Shown here: positions 2,869-3,252 of the stretch, piece by piece
Layout: each line of letters begins with the position of its first letter
Numbering within the stretch: position 1 is the stretch's first letter
Assembly (NCBI RefSeq): GCF_003334335.1
Contig: NZ_QOWQ01000082.1
Strand: one strand, 5' to 3'
Source of the DNA: Escherichia coli
GTDB taxonomy: Bacteria; Pseudomonadota; Gammaproteobacteria; Enterobacterales; Enterobacteriaceae
Length of the DNA: 3,720 bases
Translations under genes and position numbers: made by a program
The notes under the pieces: generated by a model
What the model was told of the DNA's origin: nothing
What the model saw: the letters and a program-made list of their open reading frames with translations, nothing else
Database searches by the model: none

Positions 2869-3252
2869 ATGGCAACAAAAGAAGAAAATCTGAATCGTCT
2901 TCGTCAACTGGCTGGCCTGCTGGGGCGCGAGGCGGATATGTCGGGGAGTGCTGCGGATATTGCTCAACGTGTGTCTGAGTGGGAAGAGGAGCTTGCTGTT
3001 TCCCCGGAGGGCATTATGCACTCTGATGAGAGCGGGGCTGATCAAAATCACACAGACGATGGTGAGCAGTTGAACAACACGGATGCTCCGGATGATGTTA
3101 AAGCCGTCCGGGTACGGAAGTGCCTGCAAGTAATGGGGTATTGCCCGGAGACAGGTCGTCCCGTTGAGCTGGCGTTACGGGGTATGCGTGTTCTGGTGCC
3201 ATCATCACTGGCAACGGCCATGATACAGCACGGAACGGCTGAATATGCGTGA
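2869..3252 (+). CDS. FI: Head assembly / DNA-packaging accessory protein, gpFI-like
   Basis: ORF in the frame of track ORF 2821-3252, with start reassigned to ATG 2869 because of the strong SD immediately upstream; the GTG at 2821 lies inside the terminator hairpin. About 127 aa, stop TGA 3250-3252. Position between E and FII and size match lambda FI (about 132 aa). It has an acidic, low-complexity central segment. Sequence similarity to lambda gpFI is only weakly recalled, so the call rests mainly on synteny and size. Confidence 0.75.
   Translation: MATKEENLNRLRQLAGLLGREADMSGSAADIAQRVSEWEEELAVSPEGIMHSDESGADQNHTDDGEQLNNTDAPDDVKAVRVRKCLQVMGYCPETGRPVELALRGMRVLVPSSLATAMIQHGTAEYA

What the first reader, a model, noticed from the sequence alone, without database searches (positions are those of the whole stretch)
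3010..3110. Acidic low-complexity segment in the middle of the FI-like protein
The central part of the predicted FI product (…SPEGIMHSDESGADQNHTDDGEQLNNTDAPDD…) is rich in D, E, S, T and N. This is consistent with a flexible linker between an N-terminal helical region and a C-terminal globular domain. The segment is likely to vary in length between homologues.
Basis: inference. Interest (0 to 1): 0.2.

Follow-up and report, generated by a model that had tools for sequence, protein, structure and literature searches.

The report
Acidic flexible linker of phage FI
The flagged stretch is the acidic, disordered hinge joining the two folded domains of a lambda/phage-21-type FI DNA-packaging chaperone, a domain layout already described for phage lambda's own FI protein, so it is real but ordinary.

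Summary
The window is a phage-21-like lambdoid head module: C/Nu3, D, E, FI, FII, start of Z. The 127-aa ORF at 2869-3252 is a gpFI homologue (Pfam PF14000, phrog_92), and the identical protein is encoded on at least 38 public viral contigs.

The quoted acidic string is residues 45-76 (nt 3001-3096). The finding's coordinates sit about 10 nt too far 3'. The segment has 31% D+E, no K/R and net charge -10. It is compositionally biased but not low-complexity by entropy.

Two AlphaFold2 runs give helices 4-18 and 28-44, a coil with pLDDT below 50 at about 45/50-73, and a confident beta-rich C-terminal domain. That domain's best PDB match is the lambda gpFI C-terminal domain (2LSM).

Across 94 family representatives the linker is 9-52 aa long and net negative in 94%. 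The flanking domains keep nearly constant length. The linker also has the most relaxed pN/pS (0.66).

One side observation deserves a look. The linker and C-terminal domain form a mosaic module that co-varies with a 28-residue recombinant patch in capsid protein E. The charges of the two are complementary.

The parts
2869..3252 (+). FI gene (127 aa plus stop), a gpFI-family DNA-packaging chaperone
   Evidence: ORF and translation. Pfam PF14000 E=1.4e-13; phrog_92 E=9e-47. Annotated 'DNA packaging protein FI' in a 96.5%-identical phage record.
2869..3000 (+). N-terminal domain, residues 1-44: predicted helical hairpin (helices 4-18 and 28-44). The most conserved part of the family.
   Evidence: AlphaFold2 pLDDT 81-91. 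Mean pairwise identity 0.78. Nearly invariant K4, L11, L14, L18, R20, G26, R34, E37, E41 across 83 diverse homologues.
3001..3096 (+). Acidic disordered interdomain linker, residues 45-76. This is the feature in the finding.
   Evidence: Composition and charge. pLDDT below 50 and no secondary structure. Disordered side of the charge-hydropathy plot, and pN/pS 0.66. Length 9-52 aa and net negative in 94% of 94 representatives.
3097..3249 (+). C-terminal globular domain, residues 77-127 (four to five strands plus helix 112-121): the fold of the lambda gpFI head-binding domain
   Evidence: pLDDT about 95. Family profile hits PDB 2LSM at E=6.5e-19. Foldseek top hit is 2LSM, TM 0.75 normalised to the target, probability 1.00.
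2224..2307 (+). E (major capsid protein) residues 146-173: a recombinant patch that co-varies with the FI linker plus C-terminal domain type. Inferred partner surface, not part of the linker itself.
   Evidence: 10 of the 20 amino-acid differences from phage 21 E fall in these 28 residues (Fisher p=3e-7); pS is about 1.0 here against 0.25 in the rest of E. Patch type and FI C-terminal domain type co-occur in 209 of 212 loci, with opposite charges.

Best explanation
Residues 45-76 of this 127-aa protein are the intrinsically disordered, acidic tether of a gpFI-family DNA-packaging chaperone.

The protein has three parts:
- a conserved N-terminal helical hairpin (residues 1-44);
- the linker (residues 45-76);
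- a small beta-rich C-terminal domain (residues 77-127) with the fold of the lambda gpFI C-terminal domain.

In lambda, the C-terminal domain is the part that binds the major capsid protein gpE on proheads. gpFI is thought to help the terminase-DNA complex dock on the prohead.

The proposed mechanism is inferred. The C-terminal domain anchors the protein on the E lattice. The linker lets the N-terminal domain sample a radius of up to about 10 nm (32 residues at roughly 0.35 nm each). This raises the capture rate of the terminase-DNA complex.

The role of the negative charge and lack of hydrophobic residues is also inferred. They would keep the tether expanded and soluble, and stop it sticking to DNA or collapsing onto the folded domains.

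Selection acts on composition and approximate length, not on sequence. That is why the segment is the most variable part of the family.
For: Family membership.

Synteny E-FI-FII.

Disorder:
- Two independent AlphaFold2 runs give pLDDT below 50 only at 45-73 or 50-72, with flanking domains at 81-97.
- Charge-hydropathy classification places only this segment on the disordered side.

C-terminal domain fold matches 2LSM.

Linker behaviour in evolution:
- Mean pairwise identity is 0.23, against 0.78 (N) and 0.42 (C).
- Length is 23-39 aa in near homologues and 9-52 aa in 94 cluster representatives (standard deviation 8.2 aa, against 3.7 and 2.8 for the domains).
- Net charge is negative in 94% of those representatives, with median -6 and about -0.2 per residue.
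- One homologue (P0192) has a linker of about 90 aa rich in D, G and A.
- Within the window's own type, pN/pS is 0.66 in the linker against 0.35 (N) and 0.18 (C). pS is as high as in the N-terminal domain (0.073 against 0.070), so no overlapping constraint is apparent.

Published role of gpFI: it assists association of the terminase-DNA complex with the prohead and binds the gpE lattice (PMC4856287; PMC7889075; both citing Popovic et al. 2012, J Biol Chem 287:32085). The two-domain description of lambda gpFI, with a helical N-terminal domain and a head-binding C-terminal domain solved by NMR, is from my own knowledge of that paper's abstract. The paper itself could not be opened.
Against: No experiment on this protein exists here; disorder is predicted, not measured. 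Low pLDDT can also mark segments that fold only on binding a partner.

Conservation of negative charge across the family suggests the acidity may do more than keep a spacer soluble (see rival 1).

The reach and capture mechanism is inference. I could not read the primary paper to check how its authors treat residues about 40-72 of lambda gpFI.
Confidence: 0.8

Rival explanations
1. The acidic segment is itself an electrostatic effector rather than a passive spacer. It could be a DNA-mimicking or basic-surface-binding tail that contacts terminase (its DNA-binding small subunit) or the capsid. It could also fold back on the protein's own basic C-terminal domain to regulate head binding.
For: Net negative charge is kept in 94% of 94 representatives despite no sequence conservation. 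The window's type combines the most acidic linker (-10) with the only clearly basic C-terminal domain (+4) among the five types compared. The linker always co-segregates with the C-terminal domain type and never with the N-terminal domain type.
Against: Across the five types, linker charge does not track C-terminal domain charge cleanly: -10/+4, -5/-3, -7.4/-2, -8.2/-1, -3/0. Length varies fivefold and no motif is conserved. Acidic, polar composition is the generic signature of expanded linkers, so charge conservation alone does not show a binding role.
Confidence: 0.25
2. The segment is a neutral, tolerated junction left by mosaic recombination between an N-terminal module and a C-terminal module. 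It has no selected property.
For: DNA identity to phage 21 is 73-95% through the N-terminal domain coding region (nt 2821-3000). It collapses to 12% in nt 3001-3060, at the start of the linker, and stays at 50-60% through the C-terminal domain. One N-domain type is combined with three different linker plus C-terminal domain types. The linker has the highest pN/pS.
Against: pN/pS is still below 1 (0.66). Acidic, hydrophobic-poor composition recurs in lineages whose linkers are unalignable. A linker of at least 9 aa is present in all 94 representatives. The recombination joint lies at the N-terminal edge of the linker, not within it.
Confidence: 0.1
3. The unusual composition reflects a different feature encoded in the same DNA, such as an overlapping ORF on the other strand or frame, or an RNA element.
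For: Mechanical ORFs overlap the region: minus strand 2854-3129 (91 aa) and plus strand 2948-3073 (41 aa).
Against: No Rfam family matches the window. There are no meaningful repeats or inverted repeats. The synonymous rate in the FI frame is as high in the linker as in the N-terminal domain (0.073 against 0.070), and pN/pS below 1 applies in the FI frame. The region is unalignable between FI types at the DNA level, so any overlapping ORF would not be conserved.
Confidence: 0.02

Closest known systems
Bacteriophage lambda gpFI (NP_040588, 132 aa; C-terminal domain structure PDB 2LSM; Popovic et al. 2012)
   Same: Same Pfam family (PF14000) and same gene position between E and FII. Same three-part layout: a helical N-terminal part of 43-44 aa, an acidic variable middle, and a 51-aa C-terminal domain. 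The predicted C-terminal fold matches 2LSM. The lambda linker is also acidic (38 aa, net -8).
   Different: Only 24% identical overall. The linker is 6 aa shorter and unalignable. The C-terminal domain is basic (+4) here and neutral in lambda.
Phage 21 FI (UMO75424, 124 aa)
   Same: The surrounding head genes are mostly 85-100% identical at the DNA level. The FI N-terminal domain is closely related, with the same domain lengths.
   Different: The linker plus C-terminal domain is a different allele. DNA identity is 12-60% over nt 3001-3240 and overall protein identity is 43%. The phage 21 linker is 29 aa with net -5, and its C-terminal domain is net -3.
Identical or near-identical prophage FI proteins in E. 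coli (e.g. Escherichia phage PhiR12_2_star XSB41797; phage 204576)
   Same: The FI DNA is 100% identical to PhiR12_2_star. At least 38 IMG/VR viral contigs encode the identical 127-aa protein. NCBI entries are named 'DNA-packaging protein FI'.
   Different: Nothing of substance; the window is one more copy of this allele.

Membership tests
gpFI / Packaging_FI (Pfam PF14000; PHROG 92) | Significant full-length match to the family profile | tested here: met
   PF14000 E=1.4e-13, residues 3-122 against model 1-129/131. phrog_92 E=9.3e-47, residues 1-126 against 1-127/128. No NCBIfam model matched.
gpFI / Packaging_FI | Gene located between the major capsid gene E and the head-completion gene FII in a lambda-like head module | tested here: met
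   Window order is C/Nu3-D-E-FI-FII-Z, the same as annotated in phage 21, PhiR12_2_star and lambda.
gpFI / Packaging_FI | C-terminal domain with the fold of the lambda gpFI head-binding domain (PDB 2LSM) | tested here: met
   Family profile against PDB hits 2lsm_A at E=6.5e-19. The AlphaFold2 model's best PDB match is 2LSM, with TM 0.75 normalised to the target. The single sequence alone found no PDB match.
gpFI / Packaging_FI | Helical N-terminal domain joined to the C-terminal domain by a flexible segment | tested here: met
   Prediction only: helices 4-18 and 28-44, then coil with pLDDT below 50 at 45-73 or 50-72.
gpFI / Packaging_FI | C-terminal domain binds major capsid protein E on proheads | not testable with these tools
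   Indirect evidence only. FI C-terminal domain type co-occurs with an E residue 146-173 patch type in 209 of 212 loci, with opposite net charges.
gpFI / Packaging_FI | Stimulates terminase-prohead association and DNA packaging | not testable with these tools
   Function taken from lambda literature (PMC4856287; PMC7889075).
Low-complexity region (SEG sense) | Local sequence entropy below the SEG trigger (2.2 bits in a 12-residue window) | tested here: not met
   Minimum 12-mer entropy inside residues 45-76 is 2.86 bits. Whole-segment entropy is 3.48 bits with 13 residue types.

The most novel reading that the evidence does not exclude
The linker plus C-terminal domain of FI and a 28-residue surface patch of capsid protein E (residues 146-173) may form naturally co-adapted, charge-complementary specificity pairs. 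The patch is possibly the 'EFi domain' defined genetically in lambda. The pairs would be exchanged among lambdoid phages as two non-adjacent mosaic pieces. In this reading, the family-wide acidity of the linker is a selected electrostatic element of the chaperone cycle, not just a spacer.
Probability: 0.3. Interest if true: 0.4.

Novelty: already known. Interest (0 to 1): 0.12.

Why it matters
For the finding itself, little is at stake. It confirms that an annotated FI allele, common in E. coli prophages, has the published gpFI layout with a disordered acidic hinge.

The family-wide numbers give a quantitative baseline for anyone engineering or dissecting gpFI. These are linker length 9-52 aa, net negative charge in 94% of representatives, and fixed domain lengths.

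The side observation has more potential. Matched, charge-complementary variants of the FI C-terminal domain and an E patch would provide natural allele pairs. These could be used to map the chaperone-capsid interface, which has no complex structure that I know of.

Tried and rejected
- A single-sequence search of PDB found nothing. Only the family profile reached 2LSM.
- NCBIfam has no model for this protein.
- The primary gpFI paper (Popovic 2012) could not be opened by DOI or PMC id. The 'EFi domain' paper (Murialdo & Tzamtzis 1997) is only cited in held papers. I therefore could not confirm that E residues 146-173 coincide with the EFi domain.
- Further literature searches for fin mutations or gpFI-gpE details gave nothing usable.
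- Rfam, repeat and inverted-repeat scans of the FI region found no DNA- or RNA-level feature.
- Larger proteins carrying FI parts suggested an E-FI or terminase-FI fusion: P0174, P0191, P0106, and the phrog_2353 and phrog_15460 matches. On inspection the three proteins look like chimeric, vector-derived or frameshifted database entries, and I rejected them as evidence.
- The first viral-contig scan with the family alignment returned only near-identical loci. Four more scans with other FI types were needed.
- Weak Foldseek similarity of the C-terminal domain to GINS B-domains (E=0.03-0.4) was not pursued and is not claimed.

Full report
**What the window is.** The 3720-nt window carries, on the + strand, the end of a C/Nu3 protease-scaffold gene (1-1347), a D/shp-like decoration gene (1384-1731), the major capsid gene E (1789-2817), a 127-codon ORF (2869-3252), FII (3245-3598) and the start of Z.
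- Megablast finds it at 98.8% identity in Escherichia phage 204576 and 96.5% in PhiR12_2_star.
- It matches phage 21 (Jouyvirus) at about 93%.
- In those records the ORF is annotated as DNA packaging protein FI.

**Checking the observation.** The quoted peptide is present. It is residues 45-76 of the product, nt 3001-3096. The stated 3010-3110 correspond to residues 48-81 and run into the first strand of the next domain.
- The segment is 56% D/E/S/T/N and 31% D+E. It has no K or R, net charge -10, and only 9% bulky hydrophobic residues.
- It is the most D/E/S/T/N-rich 32-residue window in the five proteins of the window, and within one charge unit of the most negative one (-11, FI residues 35-66).
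- Shuffles of FI itself reach these values in about 2-3% of trials.
- It is not low-complexity in the technical sense. Entropy is 3.48 bits over 13 residue types, and the minimum 12-mer entropy is 2.86 bits against a SEG trigger of 2.2.

**Identity of the protein.** Pfam Packaging_FI matches residues 3-122 (E=1.4e-13). PHROG 92 'DNA packaging chaperone FI' matches end to end (E=9e-47).
- A search of 5.8 billion proteins returned 108 relatives, mostly E. coli prophage proteins named DNA-packaging protein FI.
- At least 38 IMG/VR contigs encode the identical protein.
- A profile built from 32 homologues hits the only solved relative, the lambda gpFI C-terminal domain (2LSM), at E=6.5e-19.

**Structure.** AlphaFold2 with the 32-sequence alignment predicts helices 4-18 and 28-44, then a stretch without secondary structure and with pLDDT below 50 at 45-73. 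A compact domain follows: strands 77-82, 86-91, 98-102 and 107-111, helix 112-121, and strand 124-126.
- Repeating the run with 83 diverse homologues raised confidence of the N-terminal part to 85-91 and of the C-terminal domain to about 95.
- Residues 50-72 stayed below 50, and the secondary structure was identical.
- In both models the best PDB match is 2LSM, with TM 0.75 normalised to the target and probability 1.00.
- The charge-hydropathy criterion places only residues 45-76 on the disordered side.

**Evolutionary behaviour.** In 32 homologues including lambda and phage 21, the N-terminal part is 43-44 aa and the C-terminal part 51 aa in almost all. The linker ranges from 23 to 39 aa. Mean pairwise identities are 0.78 (N), 0.23 (linker) and 0.42 (C).
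- A profile search of 1.84 billion cluster representatives gave 195 relatives.
- In 94 full-length representatives the linker is 9-52 aa, median 31.5. Its standard deviation is 8.2 aa, against 3.7 and 2.8 for the domains.
- It is net negative in 94% of them, with median -6. The window's linker ranks 7th most acidic.
- One homologue (P0192) has a linker of about 90 aa rich in D, G and A.
- Among 26 distinct alleles of the window's own type, pN/pS is 0.66 in the linker, against 0.35 and 0.18 in the domains. pS is as high as in the N-terminal domain.
- This is relaxed but not absent purifying selection, with no sign of an overlapping constraint.
- No Rfam family, repeat or inverted repeat explains the region.

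**Mechanism.** Held papers state that gpFI helps the terminase-DNA complex associate with the prohead and is bound to the gpE lattice (PMC4856287; PMC7889075; both citing Popovic et al. 2012).
- From my own knowledge of that paper's abstract, lambda gpFI is a two-domain protein. Its C-terminal domain binds heads and its N-terminal domain is helical. I could not open the paper.
- The best-supported reading is that residues 45-76 are the flexible tether between a capsid-anchoring C-terminal domain and an effector N-terminal hairpin.
- The acidic, hydrophobic-poor composition would keep the tether expanded and non-adhesive. This step is inferred.
- The main rival is that the acidity itself is functional, through binding to a basic surface or self-regulation of the basic C-terminal domain.
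- Family-wide charge conservation favours that rival. It is not supported by a clean relation between linker charge and C-terminal domain charge.

**Mosaicism (beyond the finding).** Against phage 21, DNA identity is mostly 85-100% across the window and 73-95% over nt 2821-3000. It falls to 12% at 3001-3060 and 50-60% to 3240, then recovers in FII. The joint therefore lies at the end of helix 2.
- In 212 loci from five viral-contig scans, linker type always goes with C-terminal domain type.
- One N-domain type is shared by three C-terminal domain types.
- There is a second divergent island inside E, at residues 146-173 (nt 2224-2307). It holds 10 of the 20 amino-acid differences from phage 21 E (Fisher p=3e-7).
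- In that island pS is about 1.0 against 0.25 elsewhere, so the patch was imported by recombination.

Patch type and FI C-terminal domain type co-occur as follows:

| FI C-terminal domain type | Net charge | E patch charge | Loci with the matching patch |
|---|---|---|---|
| Window type | +4 | -4 | 86 of 87 |
| Phage 21 type | -3 | +1 | 43 of 43 |
| P0054 type | -2 | +1 | 24 of 24 |
| Lambda type | -1 | -1 | 53 of 55 |
| Citrobacter type | 0 | -2 | 3 of 3 |

- At type level the charges anticorrelate: r=-0.96 with n=5, and r=-0.83 over 53 distinct combinations that are not phylogenetically independent.
- L065 is a natural mismatch.
- This fits a charge-complementary contact between the FI C-terminal domain and E. 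It may correspond to the 'EFi domain' of Murialdo & Tzamtzis 1997 (title seen; content not read).
- The two sites are only about 700 nt apart and there are few independent types, so linkage alone is not excluded.

**Verdict.** The feature is the known interdomain linker of a known protein family, in an allele already present and annotated in public databases. Interest is low. The co-variation between E and FI is the only element that might merit further work.

Noticed in passing
window 2224-2307 (E residues 146-173) together with 3001-3249 (FI linker plus C-terminal domain): Two non-adjacent mosaic islands differ from phage 21 while the DNA between them stays 87-98% identical. E-patch type and FI C-terminal domain type co-occur in 209 of 212 loci, with opposite net charges: +4/-4 here and -3/+1 in phage 21. 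This may be the gpE 'EFi domain' to gpFI interface; L065 is a natural mismatch.
   Followed up: partly
window about 2990-3000 (end of FI helix 2...SEWEEEL): The recombination joint inside FI lies here. One N-terminal domain type is combined with three different linker plus C-terminal domain types, and the linker always travels with the C-terminal domain.
   Followed up: partly
window 2825-2855 (E-FI intergenic region): A strong terminator-like hairpin (9 bp with 7 G-C pairs, GCGGGGGCG-AAA-TGCCCCCGT, followed by GTCTTTTTTC) lies between the E stop and the FI ribosome-binding site. In the RNA fold its outer stem pairs with part of the AGGAGG region: -24.4 kcal/mol, z=-2.2. It could lower FI expression relative to E by attenuation or translational masking.
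   Followed up: partly
window 3245-3252: The FII start codon overlaps the FI stop (ATGCGTGA), suggesting translational coupling. In lambda the two genes are separated by 11 nt.
   Followed up: no
window about 781-1210 (C/Nu3 residues about 261-402): There are three protein-level repeats of about 45-50 aa in the scaffold part of C/Nu3 (...IM..EA.G.EQ...L...P.MTVE.AR..LAA...). Repeats 2 and 3 share 22 of 42 positions. They are not detectable as DNA tandem repeats.
   Followed up: partly
proteins P0155 and P0192: These are architectural variants of the family. P0155 has a tandem duplication of the N-terminal helical domain. P0192 has a linker of about 90 aa rich in D, G and A.
   Followed up: no
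proteins P0174, P0191, P0106; PHROGs 15460 and 2353: Some database entries fuse FI fragments to unrelated proteins: a signal-peptide protein, a protein with a Nu1-like N-terminus, and a frameshifted E C-terminus. Two PHROGs labelled 'terminase' and 'major head protein' match FI sequence. These are probably chimeric, vector-derived or miscalled ORFs that could mislead annotation.
   Followed up: partly
hit H21, MT713136.1 Aeromonas phage AP1, positions 250152-250396: A 254-kb Aeromonas phage record contains 245 nt that are 96% identical to the start of this lambdoid E gene (window 1788-2032), in an unannotated stretch near the record's end. This may be contamination or an assembly artefact.
   Followed up: no
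FI C-terminal domain model (window 3097-3249): After 2LSM, the next Foldseek hits are B-domains of archaeal and eukaryotic GINS subunits (E=0.03-0.4, TM 0.5-0.64 normalised to the small targets). This is a weak resemblance of small beta domains and is not claimed as homology.
   Followed up: no
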